A stretch of DNA of 64,000 nt. Source: a phage. The stretch lies in sequence record NC_100371.1; one strand, given 5' to 3'. Below the pieces are notes generated by a model, which did not search any database, had not been told where the DNA came from, and was given only the letters and a program-made list of their open reading frames with translations. Numbering within the stretch: the stretch's first letter is position 1; each line of letters begins with the position of its first letter. Positions 2,758 to 51,043 of the stretch are shown in pieces. Position numbers and translations under genes: made by a program.

Positions 2758-3661
2758 CTGCTCCCATTCGAATTGCGTCGTTTATGTTCGGGCAAGGTCG
2801 CTAGTCTTGCCCCGCCATTTTCAGGCAGCTGCATGTCTCCATGCAGACCAGACTATATCTTATGAATGTGCAAATACTCTGCTGCTCTAAGAATGGTTTC
2901 CTCATCCTCTTGGAAGAAACCTAAAGCTCTGTTGCATTTATCACAAAGCAACCCTCTTACAGCACCAGTTTTATGGTCATGATCAACACAAAAGAAATCT
3001 CTGTACCCTTGCGTCCTATACTCATCAAGAGATATTCTACAAATGGCACACTTATGATCTTGATCTGAGAGTAAGCGATAGTATTCATCTTTTGTTATGT
3101 GAAATTTCTTCTCAATCTGATAAAACTTTTCACACATCTTACACCTGTTCGTAACCAGATACACTTTACCATAGTCACGTTTTGTGTAAAAACTATCAGC
3201 AAGCATACTTTCATGACAAGATTTACATTCAAAAAGCTCACCTTTCTTCAGTAAGTCTTGAATAAAAGATGCTGCATCATCTCTCTTAACCATATTTTTG
3301 TTTCTACGAGATCCATTCTTCCTGTAGTACATATAGCATTCCTTGCATGTACCGGAGTATCCATCCTTGCTCTTAGATGATAAAAAGAAATCATCAAGAG
3401 GTAGAACTCTTTGGCAATCCATACATTTTTTAGTATTACACATTCACCCTCCCGTTTCGAATCGCTTGATTCTACGTCTTTCGACTAGTCGTTGAACGTT
3501 CATCCTTTCGGATGCTTCGCTGCGGATTATCTAAATTAACACACTGTTACCATACCTTCGATCTCTCTTCGAAGCCTCTATCATGTTACCATGACAGGTT
3601 GGTGGTGTCAATAATAAAGATTTCCCCGCAATTAGGGAGGTTTTACGAGAGCTACAAATTA
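2758..3661 (-). mobile_element. group I self-splicing intron with embedded homing endonuclease gene
   Basis: Minus-strand matches to group I core elements P (AATTGCGGGGAAA), Q (AATCCGCAGC), R (GTTCAACGACTA) and S (AAGATATAGTC), in canonical order, sit between the two terL ORFs. Exon 1 ends ...GAT GAG GGT followed by TAA. Boundaries are approximate. Confidence 0.7.
2853..3443 (-). CDS. intron-encoded homing endonuclease, EndoVII/HNH-like with N-terminal zinc fingers
   Basis: 196 aa; motif DHDHKTGAVRGLLCDKCN resembles T4 endonuclease VII; several CxxC pairs; GGGAGGG RBS; the stop codon overlaps the intron S element. Confidence 0.7.
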   Translation of the reverse strand: MCNTKKCMDCQRVLPLDDFFLSSKSKDGYSGTCKECYMYYRKNGSRRNKNMVKRDDAASFIQDLLKKGELFECKSCHESMLADSFYTKRDYGKVYLVTNRCKMCEKFYQIEKKFHITKDEYYRLLSDQDHKCAICRISLDEYRTQGYRDFFCVDHDHKTGAVRGLLCDKCNRALGFFQEDEETILRAAEYLHIHKI

Positions 3662-5435: not shown

Positions 5436-5534
5436 GGTGCTAGGTGATGGAATCGAACCATCTATGTATTCAACGACTACCTCGTCTATTTTCAGGATTA
5501 AAAATCCTCGCCCTTGCCAAAGGGCTTACCTAGC
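5436..5534 (-). tRNA. atypical tRNA-like gene (long variable region; anticodon not assignable by eye)
   Basis: Perfect acceptor pairing GCTAGGT/ACCTAGC and canonical T-arm GATGGTTCGATTCCATC, but about 99 nt long with an unusual anticodon-arm region (AGGAT-TTTTA-ATCCT); no complete encoded CCA. Confidence 0.4.
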
Positions 5535-45986: not shown

Positions 45987-46286
45987 ATGTCTACAACGAC
46001 AGCTAAATACTCCTATATGCCAGCAACCTCAGCAGAAATAGACTTCAGTTTCGATGTGTTTCCATTGTTTGAGGTGGTTCTGGCATACCCAACAATACTA
46101 TCTACTCCTGAATCCCTTGTACCTGTTAAGTTGCAGAACGCTATGCACTCCATGCACTACAACAATAAATGTAGGCACAGATGGTGTCAAGACGAGGAAA
46201 AAGATCTGGAGAGTTTGAAAGATTTTGACAGTCACCTTTTGACACCTTTTAGTTACTCAAACCTAGACAAGCCTTCATGGGTATAG
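45987..46286 (+). CDS. hypothetical protein
   Basis: ATG at 45987 with GAGGTGG RBS. Confidence 0.4.
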   Translation: MSTTTAKYSYMPATSAEIDFSFDVFPLFEVVLAYPTILSTPESLVPVKLQNAMHSMHYNNKCRHRWCQDEEKDLESLKDFDSHLLTPFSYSNLDKPSWV

Positions 46287-46310
46287 CAAAGTATCAAATT
46301 TAAGGCACAT

Positions 46311-46338
46311 AGGACGCTCTGTGGCGTCCTTTTCTTTA
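46311..46338 (+). terminator. rho-independent terminator
   Basis: AGGACGC-loop-GCGTCCT hairpin followed by TTTTCTTT. Confidence 0.55.
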
Positions 46339-47022
46339 TCCGGTGAACGATTCCATACCTTAAGCAGTTAATCTCATTACAGAGCGTTTAAGGGCGGCTT
46401 ACAAGCAACTCTCTATTTCGAGCGTAGCGAGAACGCACGTCCGTTTTGACCAAAATCACCATACGCTCGGATTTTAACCAAACCCTCGCGGCGCTTCTGT
46501 TGACACATTACCGCTCCTGTGATAGTATCCGCACATCGTTTGAAGAATATGGGATACACAATGAAAACATTGTCAGAGGTTTTAGTGGTGATCCTGATAA
46601 TCATTGCGTCCATAGCGGCTGTTGCCGGAATATGCTTATAGCATCGACACGTTCCAGCCATATGTCGATAAAGTCTTATTTTTTAAACATGTTGCCGGAA
46701 TACTCACGGGTGGAACATGACCAACACACATGCATCTAAAGAGACATCTGAAGGGGTGACAGAGGAAAACTTCAATTCTGAGGATTCTCTATCTCCGTCC
46801 CAGGTGGACCCTGAGGCTGATGACCTGACGTGGGAGGATATCATAGCCATCTGGTTCTCTATTATGCCTGAGCACGAAGAGTTCAGAGGTGGGAGACTAT
46901 GAAGCACCGAGCCCACATAAGTTTATCATGCTAAAGCATGGCCTGAAGGGGCAAACGTGTATAATTCTAGCGTATTGGAACGTATAAACCCTGTTCACAC
47001 TCTCATTTCCAGAGGAGATTTC

Positions 47023-47238
47023 ATGAAAATAGAGATATTTGGTGGGGCTGACAACACTCGTGGCCTGATTTACCTTGAATTTGATGAATCTTATCTGCCA
47101 GAGGTGTTAAATATAGATGCTGTTGCGGAAGCCCTTGATGTAGACCCTAAAGATCTCTACTCTGGTGCTGAGATTGATGGTTGGGAAGAGACTCTGAACA
47201 TTGATTTCAGTGAAGTAGTGGGTGAACCTTTGGACTGA
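47023..47238 (+). CDS. small acidic protein, MKIEIF-type
   Basis: ATG with AGAGGAGA RBS; last plus-strand gene before the ORF-free region. Confidence 0.45.
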   Translation: MKIEIFGGADNTRGLIYLEFDESYLPEVLNIDAVAEALDVDPKDLYSGAEIDGWEETLNIDFSEVVGEPLD

Positions 47239-47377
47239 CACACAAGTCTGCTTTGCAGGTTTAGCTGCCCAGCTAAGGTTCTGGAGGCACCTATAACATC
47301 TTTCAACTAAATTTCCTACCAACACAGTTACTTACCCACCACACATAACTGTTTGCTTGTTTAGTGAGCAGTCATCC

Positions 47378-47405
47378 CTTGACATTCTTGCCTATCTTGA
47401 TAAAA
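47378..47405 (+). promoter_or_regulatory. sigma70-like promoter with no ORF downstream
   Basis: TTGACA-N16-TAAAAT reading into a purine/GC-rich stretch with no credible ORF. Confidence 0.4.
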
Positions 47406-48766
47406 TTAAGTTCTTCTCTTTTCTTTTACCGAGTAATTCGGGTTTTCTGTTCTCTTCGGTTTGAAGGGGTATGGAGATACACCTGAGTGAACAGGGTGAA
47501 CAACCGAACATTTGGCTATGGCATTAGCATGGCGAAGCGGACGGGTGACGAAAGAGGGGCCGGAGGACACCAGTCACTGCCATATAGTATATGGGTGATA
47601 ACCTGAAGAGTCTGAATAAGTGTTTAAGTACCAGTCAGAGGAAAAGGTGAATGGTAGCCGAAGGGGGAGAGGGGGTTTCTTATATCTTTAATTTGTATAT
47701 TATGTATACACTTGTAAACCAATTCAATTAGGATCTGTTTACCACACAAAGTGGATGGAGACAAATATCACCTATTAAACTTGAATTATTTATAGAAAAT
47801 ACCACAACACCTCTTAAGTATTTGATTTTACACACAAATCTTACAAATATCCTACCTCCATATTTAACATACTTGTAACATATTCCATATCCTACCTGCC
47901 TGATCAATTTACTCCCACCACATCCCCACATTTTCCCTGTCTGTACTACCCCTGCCCCGCCGGGAGTCCCGTCATATCTGGCTTTCCAGCAAATATCGCA
48001 CCCACAAATATCATCACCTGAAGAGGGTTTCATCCCATAATACCTGCCTTACCTGAAGAGCGCTTCATACACCACGTAAATTTTTTAATTGACCCCTCCC
48101 CGCCGCCGGAGAGGTTGGCTTTTCCCACACAGGCCTGAAGAGTCAGCCAGAAATATCTGAACAGGTCCAGTTATACCCCGATTTTGTGCCTGTCCTACAG
48201 GAGTGCTGCCCTGTCAGGAGCCGGTAGCGACTGGAGTGCTGCCAGGCGGACGGAATGGGAATACTTCTCATTTTTATAATAATTCTCAAATATCGAGGCA
48301 GTGAGGCAAATTAATAGGCCAGGCCGTTCACACAGTGGCACAACATTTGCAATCTATCTTGTGGGAGTGAATGAGAATACCTATCATTGTGAGAATGGTT
48401 ATCATTACGGGCAATTTAACATAATACCCATTATGCGCACCACTGGCGATACATACAGGGATTGATAACATGGGTTACTGTTTACGCATATAACAATTAT
48501 ATTTCTTACTATTTGTGTGGGATATAGTTAGCAACCAATAGATTAGATATTGACCTGCAGACTTCTGACCGTCCAGACGTCTAAACGCCCACACAGCAAG
48601 GATTATACATACACTCCTGCATGTAAACAGGACCGCAAAAATGCTACCATACCAGTTTGTAAATTTTTCATGCAGCACTTGACAAAGAGGAGAAAAACTT
48701 GTCTGACACACTGGACACAATGTCCCACAATATGACACAATAACGGCTGTTACTATTCCATATCTC

Positions 48767-48824
48767 ACTGTTTACGCATAGACTGTTTACGCCTGAATAG
48801 TTTACGCAAAAACTGTTTACACAG
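48767..48824. repeat. four tandem iteron-like direct repeats (ACTGTTTACGC)
   Basis: Copies at 14-17-bp spacing; further copies near 48477, 49231 and 49267. Confidence 0.55.
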
Positions 48825-48833
48825 AGATGATAA

Positions 48834-49066
48834 GCCATGCCATTCGTTTGCATGAAAACAATTAACAAGCTAACAATCTATGACATAATATAAAAGCAGG
48901 GCAACTATTAGAAGATCTATAGTTGCCTTGCTTGTTATGTCATGATTAACTAAATACAAGGCAACTATGATCTGAATAATAGATTGCAGACAAACTATCA
49001 CGGGGGTGATTGTTACTGCTTTTATATTATGTCGCGACTCCGTCGCGCCATGCCATTCGTTTGCAT
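48834..49066. repeat. dyad-symmetric element bounded by a 20-bp direct repeat
   Basis: GCCATGCCATTCGTTTGCAT at 48834-48853 and 49047-49066; inverted 18-mers GACATAATATAAAAGCAG / CTGCTTTTATATTATGTC; several GGCAACTAT/ATAGTTGCC palindromes. Confidence 0.5.
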
Positions 49067-49681
49067 AGTTGCCTTATTGTTACAGGTAAAACAATTACAT
49101 TATTAATTATTTCTTATCTTTCTCTTAGTCATCTAATGATTCCAGTCAGTATAGTAATGTACAGTAAACATTAGACGACTAAAGATTTCTCTGTGTATAA
49201 TAACTTATCGTGACAATTTCGAACTGTTTACGAAAAATGTTGACACCTGAGCTGATTTATGTTATGCAGTTTACACGAATAATTATTTTATGCAGGTATT
49301 GACTATTCCGTTATTCTGTGGTTGGAATAAATACTTTGCAGACTATAGAATGGCGTGCGTACGTGAATTCTGAGATCTGGCGGCTATAGTTATACTCGAT
49401 TTTTCGCGTAGAACACGCTTTCGATGCTGTGTAAGTGTATGACTTATAAAGATTTTTAGTTGTTGACAAGATATTGGAGATGTGCATCAGGTTAAAATTT
49501 GTGCAATAGCGGCATTACGTGCACTTTTGGGAGAGAAAACGGGTAAAAATGGCCCTGCTACCACACAATGAAAGATTATGCAATAGTTATTTTCCATGTA
49601 TATTTGTACAGTATGTGGGATTGATGGCTAGTCAATTATTCCACTTGCCAGGTAGGGCCGTTTATGGTAGGAGAAGAGCAG

Positions 49682-49709
49682 ACAAAAAGAAAGGGGCCTT
49701 TAAGCCCCT
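49682..49709 (-). terminator. rho-independent terminator ending the minus-strand gene block
   Basis: AGGGGC-loop-GCCCCT hairpin followed by a T-tract on the minus strand. Confidence 0.55.
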
Positions 49710-49728
49710 TGATAATTCAGTTAAGAAA

Positions 49729-50148
49729 TTATAATGATTCGTATATTTCAAAAATCCGATTTGCCAGGTCGTTACGGTAGCGGAATTTTTCATCGCGCTT
49801 GATCATTAAATCCTTATAGCCGTACTCTTTAAGCACTTCATTAACTTTATAGCGGCATACCTGCATATTATCTTGAGCGTCACCAATAAACTTGTTGCTG
49901 TGGTGCATTGCTTTAATTTCTTCTTCCAGGACCAGGGCAACTACCCGGACCGGATCAAGCTGATAGGCGGTAACATCTATGCGGCATTGTAGACGGCTTT
50001 TAACGTCTGCCACCGGATATACTGCAACCTCTTCCCCGTCAACATTGACAATAATTAGTTTACCATCGATTTCGAATCCTTTCGCCGCCGGACCGTGACA
50101 AAAAGCGTTATCAAAGCTATATGCCGGATTATCAGATTTAATGTTCAT
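49729..50148 (-). CDS. hypothetical protein
   Basis: 139 aa; AAGAGGTAAAAAC RBS. Confidence 0.5.
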   Translation of the reverse strand: MNIKSDNPAYSFDNAFCHGPAAKGFEIDGKLIIVNVDGEEVAVYPVADVKSRLQCRIDVTAYQLDPVRVVALVLEEEIKAMHHSNKFIGDAQDNMQVCRYKVNEVLKEYGYKDLMIKRDEKFRYRNDLANRIFEIYESL

Positions 50149-50197
50149 GGTGTTTTTACCTCTTAGTTAATTTTCTTACAACTTCCCTTCAAAAAAG

Positions 50198-50226
50198 AAT
50201 ATAGCAAAACTGCCGATCCCTGTCAA
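50198..50226 (-). promoter_or_regulatory. sigma70-like promoter
   Basis: Minus strand TTGACA-N17-TATATT. Confidence 0.5.
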
Positions 50227-50292
50227 CAAGGGATAGCATAATTTTTATGTGATCAAGGGGCTTTATCGCCCCTGACCATGCAACCTGTTGTA

Positions 50293-50556
50293 TTATTTGT
50301 TGCTCATCCAGTTTTCCCAAGCTGCCTGATAATCTGCCTCACTACGGCGGATCTCTTCTTGTTCTTCAAGCCGGATCTCTTCTTCCAGGTACCCCAAGAT
50401 ATCGGCTTTTTTGGTCTGGCGTAACATCCAATCGTCTTTTTTGCGAGTAAAGATCTTGTACGCTTTCTCGCAAACTTCTTTTTTGCTACCTTTTTGGACT
50501 TCAAGAATTCTGTAAGCCATGTACTGAACTAGTTTGAGCTGGTCAAGACGTTTCAT
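50293..50556 (-). CDS. hypothetical protein
   Basis: ATG at 50556 with AAGAGGAAAAC RBS. Confidence 0.45.
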   Translation of the reverse strand: MKRLDQLKLVQYMAYRILEVQKGSKKEVCEKAYKIFTRKKDDWMLRQTKKADILGYLEEEIRLEEQEEIRRSEADYQAAWENWMSNK

Positions 50557-50617
50557 GATGTTTTCCTCTTTATGTGGTCCTGGTTTAGTGGGCCTTTTGG
50601 CCCGTGTCATTATCTTA

Positions 50618-50890
50618 TTACTTACGGCGGCAGAATTCAAGCGTTTTTAATTGATAATCTTCCTCAGCCTGGAGTACAACCGCCTCGATCATTTCGTTGG
50701 CATTGTTGAAGCCATACCCTTTAGCGAACTCGTCCGCACCACCTTCGTGATCATGTTCTGCGTTCATCGCTTCCACGAAATGGAATTCAAGATTATTGAG
50801 ATAAGGGCTTGATGTTCCGTCCTCTTTTTCGATGAGATCCCAAATAGTATTAAAACGTGATTCGACTTCTTGGTTAATCCAGCTTAACAT
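50618..50890 (-). CDS. hypothetical acidic protein
   Basis: 90 aa; AGAGAGGAAAAC RBS. Confidence 0.45.
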   Translation of the reverse strand: MLSWINQEVESRFNTIWDLIEKEDGTSSPYLNNLEFHFVEAMNAEHDHEGGADEFAKGYGFNNANEMIEAVVLQAEEDYQLKTLEFCRRK

Positions 50891-50996
50891 GGCGTTTTCC
50901 TCTCTTCTGGTTGTTGTGTGGGCACTTTTGCCCCTTCAAGATAAATGTTACCCTACCACCTGGCAGGTGTCAACGGTTTTTATAGTTTTTTATATG

Positions 50997-51043
50997 ACAG
51001 GCACCCCCGGTGATTGTCTCCCCCCGTCACCAGGTGCCTGCCG
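50997..51043. repeat. GC-rich long-hairpin repeat element (inverted copy of the 59318 family)
   Basis: GACAGGCACCCCCGGTGATTGTCTCCCCCCGTCACCAGGTGCCTGCC; preceded on the minus strand by a TTGTAA-N16-TATACT promoter-like sequence. Confidence 0.45.

What the first reader, a model, noticed from the sequence alone, without database searches (positions are those of the whole stretch)
47239..49728. 2.4-kb ORF-free region where the plus- and minus-strand gene blocks converge
No ORF with a plausible RBS or protein-like composition lies between the last plus-strand gene (ends 47238) and the minus-strand terminator (49682-49709). The region holds a promoter with no gene, purine/GC-rich stretches, CCTGAAGAG at 47601, 48016, 48052 and 48134, duplicated GGAGTGCTGCC and CCCCGCCGG motifs, an iteron array and a large dyad element. 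This density suggests a cis-acting site (replication origin, packaging signal, or DNA-injection control region) or non-coding RNAs.
Basis: seen in the sequence. Interest (0 to 1): 0.8.

Follow-up and report, generated by a model that had tools for sequence, protein, structure and literature searches.

The report
Phage chromosome ends and packaging region
This gene-free 2.5-kb stretch is where the linear chromosome of an rV5-like E. coli phage begins and ends: a 459-bp repeat carried at both tips, flanked by conserved candidate DNA-cutting and packaging signals, plus one almost invariant promoter-driven non-coding element whose role is unknown.

Summary
Window 47239-49728 has no conserved ORF, and every listed motif is present and non-random. 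The window is a Vequintavirus (rV5-like myophage, 97.5% identical to ECP32). rV5's 2013 map already shows this gap as a 'non-coding' box. Window 48245-48703 aligns end to end with the 459-bp direct terminal repeat (DTR) annotated at both ends of phage Gotham. Published relatives have 458-459-bp terminal repeats. So 47239-48244 is the unique right end, 48704-49728 is the unique left end, and the whole gap is the concatemer junction of a T7-type short-DTR genome. The same layout, conserved end sequences and the same short motifs (CCTGAAGWG, GACACWATAAC, GTTTACRC) recur in three other genera. These are most likely packaging or end-processing sites, which is an inference. The iteron array and the dyad are poorly conserved, and FV3 lacks the dyad. 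One part is undescribed: a sigma-70 promoter (47379-47406) followed by a 265-nt G-rich block. The block is 99% identical across the genus (flanking genes 73-93%), matches no Rfam family and is absent from other genera. It is probably a transcript, function unknown.

The parts
47239..47378 (+). Spacer after the last + gene. It is C-rich and G-poor on the + strand, which resembles a Rho-utilisation (rut) site. Only composition supports this.
   Evidence: C 29-30 against G 11-14 per 100 nt at 47250-47399. Variable among relatives, with a 15-nt indel.
47379..47406 (+). Orphan sigma-70 promoter pointing towards the terminal repeat, with no ORF downstream.
   Evidence: TTGACA-16-TAAAAT with TG, 11 of 12 positions. 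In the divergent contigs L012/L020 the spacer is rewritten and 2 nt longer, yet both hexamers are unchanged.
47413..47677 (+). Ultra-conserved G-rich block, a putative ~265-nt non-coding transcript. The 5' pyrimidine run (47413-47428) is predicted to pair with the 3' purine run (47662-47677).
   Evidence: Mean pairwise identity 0.990, against 0.73-0.93 for flanking genes. 96-99.7% identical in about 117 genomes. No Rfam match, no E. coli match, no homologue in other genera. MFE -83.8 kcal/mol with z -1.8 on + and z -0.15 on -. 11 of 17 variable columns are predicted unpaired.
47429..47441 (+). Small hairpin followed by a U-run about 15 nt after the predicted start site. It is either attenuator-like or part of the larger 5' hairpin.
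   Evidence: CCGAGTAATTCGG followed by GTTTTCTGTT.
47602..47610 (+). CCTGAAGAG copy 1, inside the conserved block.
47678..47930 (.). Variable AT-rich spacer.
   Evidence: Mean pairwise identity 0.82, with 12-15-nt indels in relatives. GC 27-32%.
47800..48100 (+). Strongly C-rich, G-poor tract on the + strand. It is a candidate Rho-loading site that would stop transcription before the terminal repeat.
   Evidence: G=4 and C=28 at 47800-47899; skew -0.75 to -0.36. Analogous C>G tracts follow the last + gene in KPP-1, PVP-SE1 and 4MG.
48017..48068 (+). Two 18-nt repeats ACCTGAAGAGsGyTTCAT, carrying CCTGAAGAG copies 2 and 3.
   Evidence: Repeat family D9. Conserved in all aligned relatives.
48093..48114 (.). 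C-rich hairpin motif CCCCTCCCCGCCGCCGGAGAGG, conserved upstream of the terminal repeat in other genera.
   Evidence: Counterparts are CCCACCCCTCCCCCGCCCGGAGGG in PVP-SE1 and 4MG, and CCCCTTCCCCCGTGGGG in KPP-1.
48134..48148 (+). CCTGAAGAGTCAGCC, CCTGAAGAG copy 4. It is homologous to CCTGAAGTGTCAGCC in KPP-1.
48197..48243 (+). Duplicated ACWGGAGTGCTGCC. The second copy abuts the left genome end.
   Evidence: Repeat family D17. The first copy is deleted in rV5, Murica, FV3 and others; the second copy is kept.
48245..48703 (.). 459-bp direct terminal repeat, present once in this circularised assembly. The left genome end is 48245 and the right end is 48703.
   Evidence: Aligns end to end with both annotated terminal repeats of Gotham. 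Records EdH4, bov11CS3 and bov25_3 start at this base, and Gotham, YN3 and Aya end at 48703. Mean identity 0.951. Weak homology to the PVP-SE1 and 4MG repeats, E about 5e-4. End motifs are conserved in 4 genera.
48705..48745 (+). Array with a ~10-bp period of GACACAAT-type units, immediately inside the right cut site.
   Evidence: TRF: period 10, 2.9 copies. GACACWATAAC recurs right of the repeat in KPP-1, PVP-SE1 and 4MG.
48767..48820 (+). Iteron array with a 15-bp period, ACTGTTTACGCATAG x3.6.
   Evidence: 7 of the 15 GTTYACRC sites in the 64-kb window lie in the gap, all on +. Copy number differs between relatives, with more units in rV5.
48834..49066 (.). Dyad element bounded by a 20-nt direct repeat GCCATGCCATTCGTTTGCAT (48834-48853 and 49047-49066). 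It holds four AAGGCAACTAT sites.
   Evidence: FV3 has one copy of the 20-mer and lacks everything between the two copies. rV5, Murica, LL12 and A135 carry extra hairpin insertions.
49067..49690 (.). Conserved, partly AT-rich, ORF-free left-end region with several weak + strand promoter-like sites.
   Evidence: Mean identity 0.909. GC 29-36% at 49100-49300. Promoter-like sites at 49172 and 49322.
49691..49710 (-). Intrinsic terminator ending the - strand gene block.
   Evidence: AAGGGGCTTAAAGGCCCCTT followed by TCTTTTTGTC. Annotated as a terminator in Murica, Alma and Gotham.

Best explanation
The ORF-free stretch is the terminal region, or concatemer junction, of a phage genome with short direct terminal repeats of the T7 type.

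Shown by homology: in the virion the DNA is linear, starts at window 48245 and ends at 48703. The 459 bp between those points are present at both tips. The assembly in this window has collapsed them into one internal copy. So 47239-48244 is the unique right end and 48704-49728 is the unique left end. The two gene blocks run outward and stop short of the ends.

Inferred, step 1: replication produces head-to-tail concatemers that share one copy of the repeat. Terminase recognises sequence at or near the two boundaries, cuts there, and the repeat is duplicated by repair synthesis, as in T7.

Inferred, step 2: the oriented short repeats on either side are candidate binding sites for terminase or an end-processing or end-protecting protein. 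These are CCTGAAGAG upstream, and the GACACAAT and GTTTACGC arrays just inside the right cut. They would play the role that cosB or pac boxes play in other phages.

Inferred, step 3: transcription is kept out of the junction. The - side has an intrinsic terminator. The + side has C-rich, G-poor tracts that look like Rho-loading sites.

Inferred, step 4: Vequintavirus also carries a strong host-type promoter 866 bp upstream of the repeat. It fires towards the junction into a 265-nt block that is nearly invariant. This is most likely made as a structured RNA, or it acts through the act of transcription, comparable to the T7 phiOR promoter near that phage's right end.
For: Identity: the window is a Vequintavirus.

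Terminal repeat: Gotham's two annotated 459-bp terminal repeats align to window 48245-48703, and identity stops at both boundaries. Several GenBank records start at 48245 or end at 48703. The literature reports 459-bp terminal repeats with a fixed packaging start in Gotham (PMC7471380) and 458-bp redundancies in EdH4 and HdK5 (PMC6563267). KPP-1, in the same subfamily, has a 514-bp DTR from 2x coverage and PhageTerm, called T7-type (PMC9862379).

Same layout in other genera: a converging-block gap holding the repeat is seen in KPP-1, PVP-SE1 and 4MG. Both ends carry conserved sequence: the left core is CGGAC, and the right end is TTTGTAAAT..CTTGACA..GAG..GArAA..TGT. The motifs CCTGAAGWG, GACACWATAAC and GTTTACRC are shared.

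Selection: most of the gap is more conserved than neighbouring genes.

Orphan promoter: a promoter pointing at the repeat is also predicted just after the last + gene in KPP-1, PVP-SE1 and 4MG.

Transcription barriers: C>G tracts on the + side and a terminator on the - side.
Against: No reads from this isolate were available, so the ends are assigned by homology only.

Two papers describe relatives as circularly permuted: rV5 in 2013 and the bov phages, analysed by PhageTerm on Nextera libraries.

No protein has been shown to bind any of the motifs.

The GACACAAT and GTTTACGC arrays are poorly conserved within the genus (0.50 mean identity). This is unexpected for an essential recognition site, unless only the core words matter.

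The copies of CCTGAAGAG fold into small hairpins in different registers, so its level of action (DNA or RNA) is unclear.

The Rho-site reading rests on base composition alone.
Confidence: 0.75

Rival explanations
1. The main function of the gap is to encode a trans-acting non-coding RNA, for example a regulator or an anti-defence decoy. The RNA would be made from the promoter at 47379 and span about 47413-47677. Its position near the genome end would be incidental.
For: Both promoter hexamers are conserved although the spacer is rewritten in L012/L020. Conservation starts within a few bases of the predicted start site and ends at the 3' strand of the predicted closing helix. The block is 0.990 identical while neighbouring genes are 0.73-0.93. 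Folding is better than shuffles on the + strand only. Variation is concentrated in predicted loops (11 of 17 columns, binomial p = 0.017). Substitutions in the one ORF lying fully within the predicted transcript (39 aa, 47487-47606) are mostly non-synonymous when read by eye, which argues against coding. A related phage, phiTE, expresses a functional anti-toxin RNA from an intergenic site, so there is precedent (PMC3475682).
Against: There is no Rfam match, no intrinsic terminator and no compensatory base-pair change. The whole-block z-score is only -1.8. No complementarity to the rest of the window or to E. coli rises above chance. The block contains two words also found next to the terminal repeat, CCTGAAGAGTC and GCGGACGG, which hints at recognition at the DNA level. 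The phiTE RNA lies in a different locus.
Confidence: 0.3
2. The gap holds the replication origin. One version is an iteron-type origin made of the GTTTACGC array, the dyad and the AT-rich stretch at 49080-49300. The other is a transcription-primed (R-loop) origin in which the G-rich transcript from the 47379 promoter primes DNA synthesis, as at ColE1 or the T7 secondary origins.
For: Tandem oriented repeats lie next to a dyad and a 29-36% GC stretch. A strong promoter is followed by a non-template strand with GC skew +0.23 to +0.50 and several G4-5 runs. The region is non-coding yet conserved.
Against: The array has a 15-bp period, which is not in helical phase. Its copy number differs between close relatives and it has only 0.50 mean identity. 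FV3 lacks the dyad. No initiator-like gene is adjacent, since the flanking ORFs have no Pfam family. Both gene blocks are transcribed towards this region, so forks starting here would meet transcription head-on. The rV5 authors attributed the skew change here to transcription orientation.
Confidence: 0.2
3. The gap is a DNA-ejection control region of the T5 type, that is, an injection stop signal.
For: Direct repeats, a large palindrome and closeness to a genome end resemble the T5 stop-signal region superficially.
Against: The terminal repeat is 459 bp and gene-free, so no first-step-transfer gene set could be expressed. The dyad is dispensable in FV3.
Confidence: 0.04
4. The gap is decaying, functionless spacer DNA left where two gene blocks meet.
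For: Some segments are variable with many indels: 47678-47930, 48704-48833 and the dyad.
Against: The repeat (0.951), the block (0.990) and 49067-49690 (0.909) are as conserved as, or more conserved than, flanking genes. Motifs and end sequences persist across four genera.
Confidence: 0.03

Closest known systems
Terminal repeats of Vequintavirus phages Gotham, EdH4 and HdK5, and the 'non-coding' box of rV5
   Same: Same genus and same sequence. The 459-bp repeat aligns base for base with 48245-48703. rV5's Figure 2 marks this ORF-free box.
   Different: Those papers give only the repeat length or an unexplained box. None of the papers read here describes the flanking motif arrays, the conserved end sequences or the ultra-conserved promoter and block.
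T7/T3 concatemer junction: short DTR, the phiOR promoter near the right end, and transcription-linked processing (from established T7 literature, recalled from memory)
   Same: A short direct terminal repeat of hundreds of bp and fixed ends. A promoter a few hundred bp upstream of the right repeat fires towards the junction with no essential gene behind it. PhageTerm classes the relative KPP-1 as T7-type.
   Different: The repeat is 459 bp rather than 160 bp. The promoter is a host sigma-70 type rather than a phage RNA polymerase type. Genes converge on the ends instead of all running left to right. There is no sequence similarity. Terminase type was not examined.
Lambda cos (cosQ-cosN-cosB) and pac sites with repeated small-terminase boxes (from established literature, recalled from memory)
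   Same: Arrays of short oriented repeats lie immediately inside a terminase cut site (48705-48820, next to the cut at 48703/48704).
   Different: The ends here are terminal repeats, not 12-nt cohesive ends or headful cuts. Binding has not been shown. The arrays vary in copy number.
Terminal regions of KPP-1 (Mydovirus), PVP-SE1 and 4MG (Seunavirus)
   Same: A gap between converging gene blocks holds a terminal repeat of about 514 bp. End sequences and motif families are homologous, there is a dyad right of the repeat, and an orphan promoter points at the repeat.
   Different: They lack the 265-nt conserved block. Their repeat is about 55 bp longer. The gap upstream of the repeat is shorter (335-665 bp against 1006 bp).
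T5 injection stop signal region
   Same: A repeat- and palindrome-rich non-coding segment near a genome end.
   Different: In T5 the region lies inside a terminal repeat of about 10 kb that carries pre-early genes. Here the repeat is 459 bp and carries no genes.

Membership tests
Short direct terminal repeat (T7-type) genome ends | The same sequence of some hundreds of bp is present at both physical ends of the virion DNA. | tested here: met
   Met by homology. Gotham's record carries the 459 bp at both ends, and both copies align to window 48245-48703 with identity stopping at the boundaries. The repeat occurs once in the window, as expected for a circularised assembly.
Short direct terminal repeat (T7-type) genome ends | Fixed, non-permuted ends, seen as read-start pile-ups and 2x coverage over the repeat. 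| not testable with these tools
   No reads were available for this isolate. Relatives support it: Gotham, EdH4 and HdK5, KPP-1. Relatives conflict with it: rV5 2013 and the bov phages on Nextera libraries were called circularly permuted.
Short direct terminal repeat (T7-type) genome ends | A large terminase belonging to the short-DTR clade. | not tested
   The terminase gene was not sought in the window.
Iteron-type replication origin (lambda ori, iteron plasmids) | Three or more direct repeats in helical phase next to an AT-rich unwinding element. | tested here: inconclusive
   There are 3.6 units with a 15-bp period, which is not in helical phase. The AT-rich stretch lies about 250 bp away, beyond the dyad.
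Iteron-type replication origin (lambda ori, iteron plasmids) | Iteron sequence and number conserved among close relatives. | tested here: not met
   Mean pairwise identity is 0.50 and copy number differs between relatives.
Iteron-type replication origin (lambda ori, iteron plasmids) | A cognate initiator gene adjacent to or containing the iterons. | tested here: not met
   Ten flanking ORFs have no Pfam family, and the gap has no conserved ORF.
Curated structured RNA family (Rfam) | A match to a covariance model at or near its gathering score. | tested here: not met
   No match at E<=1 over 46000-51000. The highest-scoring match over 47380-47720 is 13.2 bits against a 45.3-bit threshold.
Independent non-coding RNA gene (generic criteria) | Its own promoter under selection. 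| tested here: met
   An 11/12 sigma-70 match. The hexamers are kept while the spacer diverges and lengthens by 2 nt in L012/L020.
Independent non-coding RNA gene (generic criteria) | A defined 3' end, meaning an intrinsic terminator or a processing site. | tested here: not met
   No terminator-like site after 47441 on the + strand. Conservation ends at about 47677. A Rho-dependent 3' end is possible but untested.
Independent non-coding RNA gene (generic criteria) | Base-pair covariation supporting a structure. | tested here: inconclusive
   Only 17 variable columns in 13 distinct sequences and no double-sided change. 11 columns are unpaired, 2 are compatible one-sided changes and 3 are disruptive.
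T5-type injection stop region | Lies within a long terminal repeat that carries pre-early genes expressed after first-step transfer. | tested here: not met
   The repeat is 459 bp with no conserved ORF.
Hammerhead ribozyme (considered because CUGAAGAG fits the CUGANGA core) | A three-helix junction with CUGANGA and GAAA cores and a cleavage site. | tested here: not met
   No Rfam hammerhead match. No GAAA core or helix II follows any copy, read from the sequence contexts.

The most novel reading that the evidence does not exclude
The 47379 promoter and the invariant 265-nt G-rich block would be a previously undescribed RNA element restricted to Vequintavirus, sitting 570-830 bp upstream of the terminal repeat. 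Either the RNA itself or the act of transcribing towards the concatemer junction would be required for genome replication or packaging. That would make it a functional counterpart of T7 phiOR driven by host RNA polymerase. Alternatively, it would act in trans as a regulator or an anti-defence decoy.
Probability: 0.4. Interest if true: 0.6.

Novelty: new member of a known kind. Interest (0 to 1): 0.4.

Why it matters
rV5-like phages are among the most frequently isolated E. coli phages and are candidates for therapy and biocontrol, yet many database records treat them as circularly permuted and start at arbitrary positions. Placing the true ends inside this gap explains the long-standing 'non-coding' box. 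It gives a rational zero point for annotation. It also defines the DNA that must be kept intact when these genomes are engineered or rebooted. The conserved end sequences and motif arrays across four genera are concrete candidates for the packaging recognition site of the whole subfamily. The near-invariant promoter-driven block is a specific, testable candidate for a new phage RNA or a transcription-dependent cis element.

Tried and rejected
- Rfam scans of 46000-51000 and, with lax filters, 47380-47720 gave nothing credible.
- blastn of the conserved block against 5,426 E. coli genomes gave no match, so it does not copy a host RNA.
- blastn and nhmmer of the block against other phages and other genera found nothing outside Vequintavirus.
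- Scans of IMG/VR and metagenomes for divergent copies returned only 2 and 4 loci, all near-identical, so covariation could not be tested.
- A search for antisense targets of the block in the 64-kb window found only chance-level 10-11-mers.
- Protein-coding readings failed. ORFs are not conserved and have no Pfam or PHROG family. The 'structural protein' label on APCEc02 gp065 has no mass-spectrometry basis, and the paper notes that the ORF lacks homologues.
- Hammerhead reading of CUGAAGAG: rejected, with no Rfam match and no core elements.
- An FtsK/KOPS idea arose because a neighbouring 87-aa ORF is annotated 'DNA translocase FtsK' and GGGNAGGG-like words occur in the gap. The ORF has no Pfam family, so the idea was dropped.
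- A dif-like site at 47694-47705 (TGTATATTATGT) was rejected. The XerC arm does not match, and the segment is deleted in some relatives.
- The phiTE pseudo-ToxI RNA, in an rV5-like phage, lies between + strand genes near tRNAs and terminase, not in the terminal gap.
- CCTGAAGAG as a promoter element: spacing to -10-like hexamers is inconsistent.
Full report
**What the window is.** The 2,490 bases match 121 phage records at 87-97.5% identity. Nearly all are Vequintavirus (rV5-like E. coli myophages), and the best hit is ECP32. Most of these records annotate no gene under the region. A few list many tiny 'hypothetical proteins' that differ from record to record.

**Check of the observation.**
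- The last + gene ends at 47238. The first - gene ends at 49729. The - strand terminator hairpin is at 49710-49691.
- The largest ORFs in the gap (101 and 97 aa) are intact in only 1-2 of 10 aligned relatives. Nine ORFs gave no Pfam or PHROG family above threshold.
- The one 'structural protein' label in a relative (APCEc02 gp065) has no mass-spectrometry basis. Its authors note that the ORF lacks homologues in other rV5-like phages.
- The orphan promoter at 47379-47406 is TTGACA-16-TAAAAT with an upstream TG.
- CCTGAAGAG occurs 7 times in the window against 0.47 expected. Four copies lie in the gap, all on the + strand. The other three are Pro-Glu-Glu codons inside genes.
- GGAGTGCTGCC occurs twice against 0.03 expected. 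CCCCGCCG occurs twice, which is only weakly unusual.
- Tandem Repeats Finder confirms a 15-bp-period array ACTGTTTACGCATAG x3.6 (48767-48820).
- The dyad is strong. It has 18/18 arms at 48882-48899 and 49016-49033, and folding z-scores of -5 to -7 on both strands.

**The decisive fact: the genome ends are here.** Several GenBank records of relatives begin or end inside the region, at two recurring points: query base 1007 (window 48245) and query base 1465 (window 48703). Phage Gotham carries an annotated 459-bp repeat_region at both ends of its record. Aligning both copies with the window shows they cover 48245-48703, and similarity between the left-end and right-end copies stops at those bases.

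The literature agrees. [quoted passage not shown] The window is therefore a circularised assembly in which the terminal repeat has collapsed to one internal copy; its end 25-mers occur once each. Hence 47239-48244 is the unique right end of the virion DNA and 48704-49728 is the unique left end.

The rV5 genome paper of 2013 already drew this stretch as a grey 'non-coding' box. It noted a skew change at 104,425-105,475 linked to transcription orientation, but it regarded the genome as circularly permuted. One later note also reports 'circular permutated' for bov phages from Nextera libraries. This is conflicting evidence and I could not resolve it without reads.

**The architecture is shared across the subfamily.**
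- KPP-1 (Mydovirus) has a 514-bp terminal repeat at 116,316-116,829, established by doubled coverage and PhageTerm and called T7-like (PMC9862379). In its record the repeat sits in a 1.8-kb gap between converging gene blocks. The record of phage KP12 starts at that same base.
- PVP-SE1 and 4MG (Seunavirus) have the same kind of gap, 2.27 kb in PVP-SE1.
- The left end has an invariant CGGAC core in all four genera. The right end reads TTTGTAAAT..CTTGACA..GAG..GArAA..TGT in all four. This places 514-515-bp repeats in PVP-SE1 and 4MG.
- nhmmer finds weak but significant homology inside the repeat (E about 5e-4).
- The short motifs recur in the same relative positions and orientation. CCTGAAGWG and CACACAA lie upstream of the repeat. 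GACACWATAAC, GTTTACRC and a large dyad lie downstream.
- In all four genera the + strand turns C-rich and G-poor right after the last + gene. The effect is strongest here, with G=4 and C=28 at 47800-47899.
- KPP-1, PVP-SE1 and 4MG each have a sigma-70-like promoter just after the last + gene. It points at the repeat and has no ORF behind it.

**Conservation within the genus** (mean pairwise identity among 10 sequences).

| Segment | Mean pairwise identity |
|---|---|
| Conserved block 47413-47677 | 0.990 |
| Terminal repeat 48245-48703 | 0.951 |
| Last + gene 47023-47238 | 0.931 |
| Left-end region 49067-49690 | 0.909 |
| + gene 46717-46902 | 0.817 |
| First - gene 49729-50148 | 0.726 |
| Dyad 48834-49066 | 0.673 |
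| Two arrays 48704-48833 | 0.502 |

- Iteron copy number differs between relatives, and rV5 carries extra units.
- FV3 has a single copy of the 20-nt direct repeat GCCATGCCATTCGTTTGCAT and lacks all 213 bp between the two copies. Other relatives carry extra GC-rich hairpin insertions at this spot.
At least the dyad is dispensable.

**The undescribed part.** The segment 47339-47688 is 97-100% identical in every 50-nt window. It is 96-99.7% identical in about 117 genomes. It is 94-100% identical even in the most divergent contig, whose flanks drop to 16-90%.
- In that contig the promoter spacer is rewritten and 2 nt longer, yet both hexamers are untouched. Conservation resumes a few bases after the predicted start site.
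- Conservation ends at about 47677, at the end of the purine run GAAGGGGGAGAGGGGG. This run is predicted to pair with the pyrimidine run CUUCUCUUUUCUUUU at the 5' end, closing the molecule.
- The + strand folds to -83.8 kcal/mol with z = -1.8. The - strand gives z = -0.15. Sliding windows give z = -2.2 to -2.5 on the + strand only.
- Of 17 variable columns in 13 distinct sequences, 11 fall in predicted unpaired positions, which make up 37% of columns (binomial p = 0.017). Two are compatible one-sided changes and three are disruptive. There is no compensatory double change.
- Substitutions in the only ORF lying fully within the predicted transcript (39 aa, 47487-47606) are mostly non-synonymous when read by eye.
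- There is no Rfam match, no E. coli homologue, no homologue outside the genus and no antisense target in the window.
- There is no intrinsic terminator. A Rho-dependent end in the C-rich tract downstream is possible but rests on composition only.
- The block also contains CCTGAAGAGTC and GCGGACGG, words that recur beside the left terminus. A DNA-level role therefore cannot be dismissed.

**Mechanism.**
- Shown by homology: fixed ends at 48245 and 48703 with a 459-bp direct terminal repeat.
- Inferred from established T7 biology, recalled from memory: replication yields concatemers sharing one repeat copy, terminase cuts at both boundaries, and the repeat is duplicated by repair synthesis.
- Inferred: the conserved boundary sequences and the oriented motif arrays are recognition or binding sites for terminase or an end-binding protein. 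Transcription from both converging blocks is stopped before the junction, by an intrinsic terminator on the - side and by rut-like tracts on the + side.
- Inferred: the orphan promoter directs transcription towards the junction, as phiOR does in T7.
- I put 0.75 on the terminal-region explanation as a whole, about 0.9 on the position of the repeat, and about 0.35 on the motifs being terminase sites. I put about 0.5 on the block being made as a discrete RNA.

**Rivals.** A replication origin (iteron-type or R-loop-primed) is not excluded. Against it are the poor conservation of the arrays, the missing dyad in FV3, the absence of an initiator gene and the head-on orientation of both gene blocks. 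A T5-like injection stop region does not fit a 459-bp gene-free repeat. Functionless spacer is contradicted by conservation above the coding level.

**Novelty and score.** The gap and the terminal repeat are already on record for this genus, so the core of the finding is explained by known biology. I found no description of three things in the papers I read:
1. The anatomy of the junction.
2. The end sequences and motif families conserved across genera.
3. The near-invariant promoter-driven block.

I rate it a new member of a known kind (short-DTR terminal regions), with interest 0.4. The most novel reading not excluded is that the block is a new RNA or transcription-dependent element needed for replication or packaging (probability 0.4, interest 0.6 if true).

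Noticed in passing
GenBank records MG0656xx, e.g. L009 = MG065690.1: Nineteen 'Campylobacter phage' records, marked UNVERIFIED with host C. jejuni, are full-length Vequintavirus genomes 86-90% identical to this E. coli phage region. They are probably mislabelled or contaminant phages.
   Followed up: no
window 5436-5534 (-): Within a cluster of six tRNA genes, ARAGORN reports a 99-nt 'tRNA-???' with a four-base anticodon (atcc). It could be an odd or intron-bearing tRNA, or a false call.
   Followed up: no
window 48834-49066; L011 (FV3), L006 (rV5), L007, L009, L010: The dyad element is bounded by a perfect 20-nt direct repeat, and FV3 lacks everything between the two copies. Other relatives carry extra 33-48-nt GC-rich hairpin insertions at two spots inside it. 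This looks like a hotspot for small palindromic insertions or for deletion by repeat recombination.
   Followed up: partly
L016 4306-4336, L017 1838-1868, L018 1894-1923: In Mydovirus and Seunavirus the right boundary of the terminal repeat lies inside a sigma-70-like promoter (TTGACA-18-TAGCAT/TAGCAA). The -35 box is in the repeat and the -10 box is in the unique left end. The promoter is therefore complete only at the left end or in concatemers. The Vequintavirus counterpart has no -10 box.
   Followed up: partly
window 50293-50556 (-): The 87-aa ORF annotated 'DNA translocase FtsK' in naswa and APCEc02 matches no Pfam family. The name appears unsupported.
   Followed up: yes
MT884009.2 / MT884011.2 (bov phages): The announcement paper lists these Vequintavirus genomes as 'circular permutated', 135,960 bp. 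The current record versions are 135,883 bp and start at the first base of the terminal repeat. The records appear to have been re-oriented after publication.
   Followed up: no
L016 2480-2510 (KPP-1) and L017 818-840 (PVP-SE1): In other genera one CCTGAAGWG copy forms the loop of a terminator-like hairpin, GGAGCC-TGAAGW-GGCTCC. In KPP-1 the hairpin is followed by a T-run; in PVP-SE1 it is not. In KPP-1 another copy is the loop of a hairpin that overlaps the orphan promoter. The motif may act at the RNA level in some contexts.
   Followed up: partly
L023 (phiTE) 3215-3273: The experimentally proven anti-ToxN RNA 'pseudo-ToxI' of the rV5-like phage phiTE lies between + strand genes near tRNA-Tyr and the terminase genes, not in the terminal gap. 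It shows that this subfamily carries functional non-coding RNAs in intergenic DNA.
   Followed up: yes
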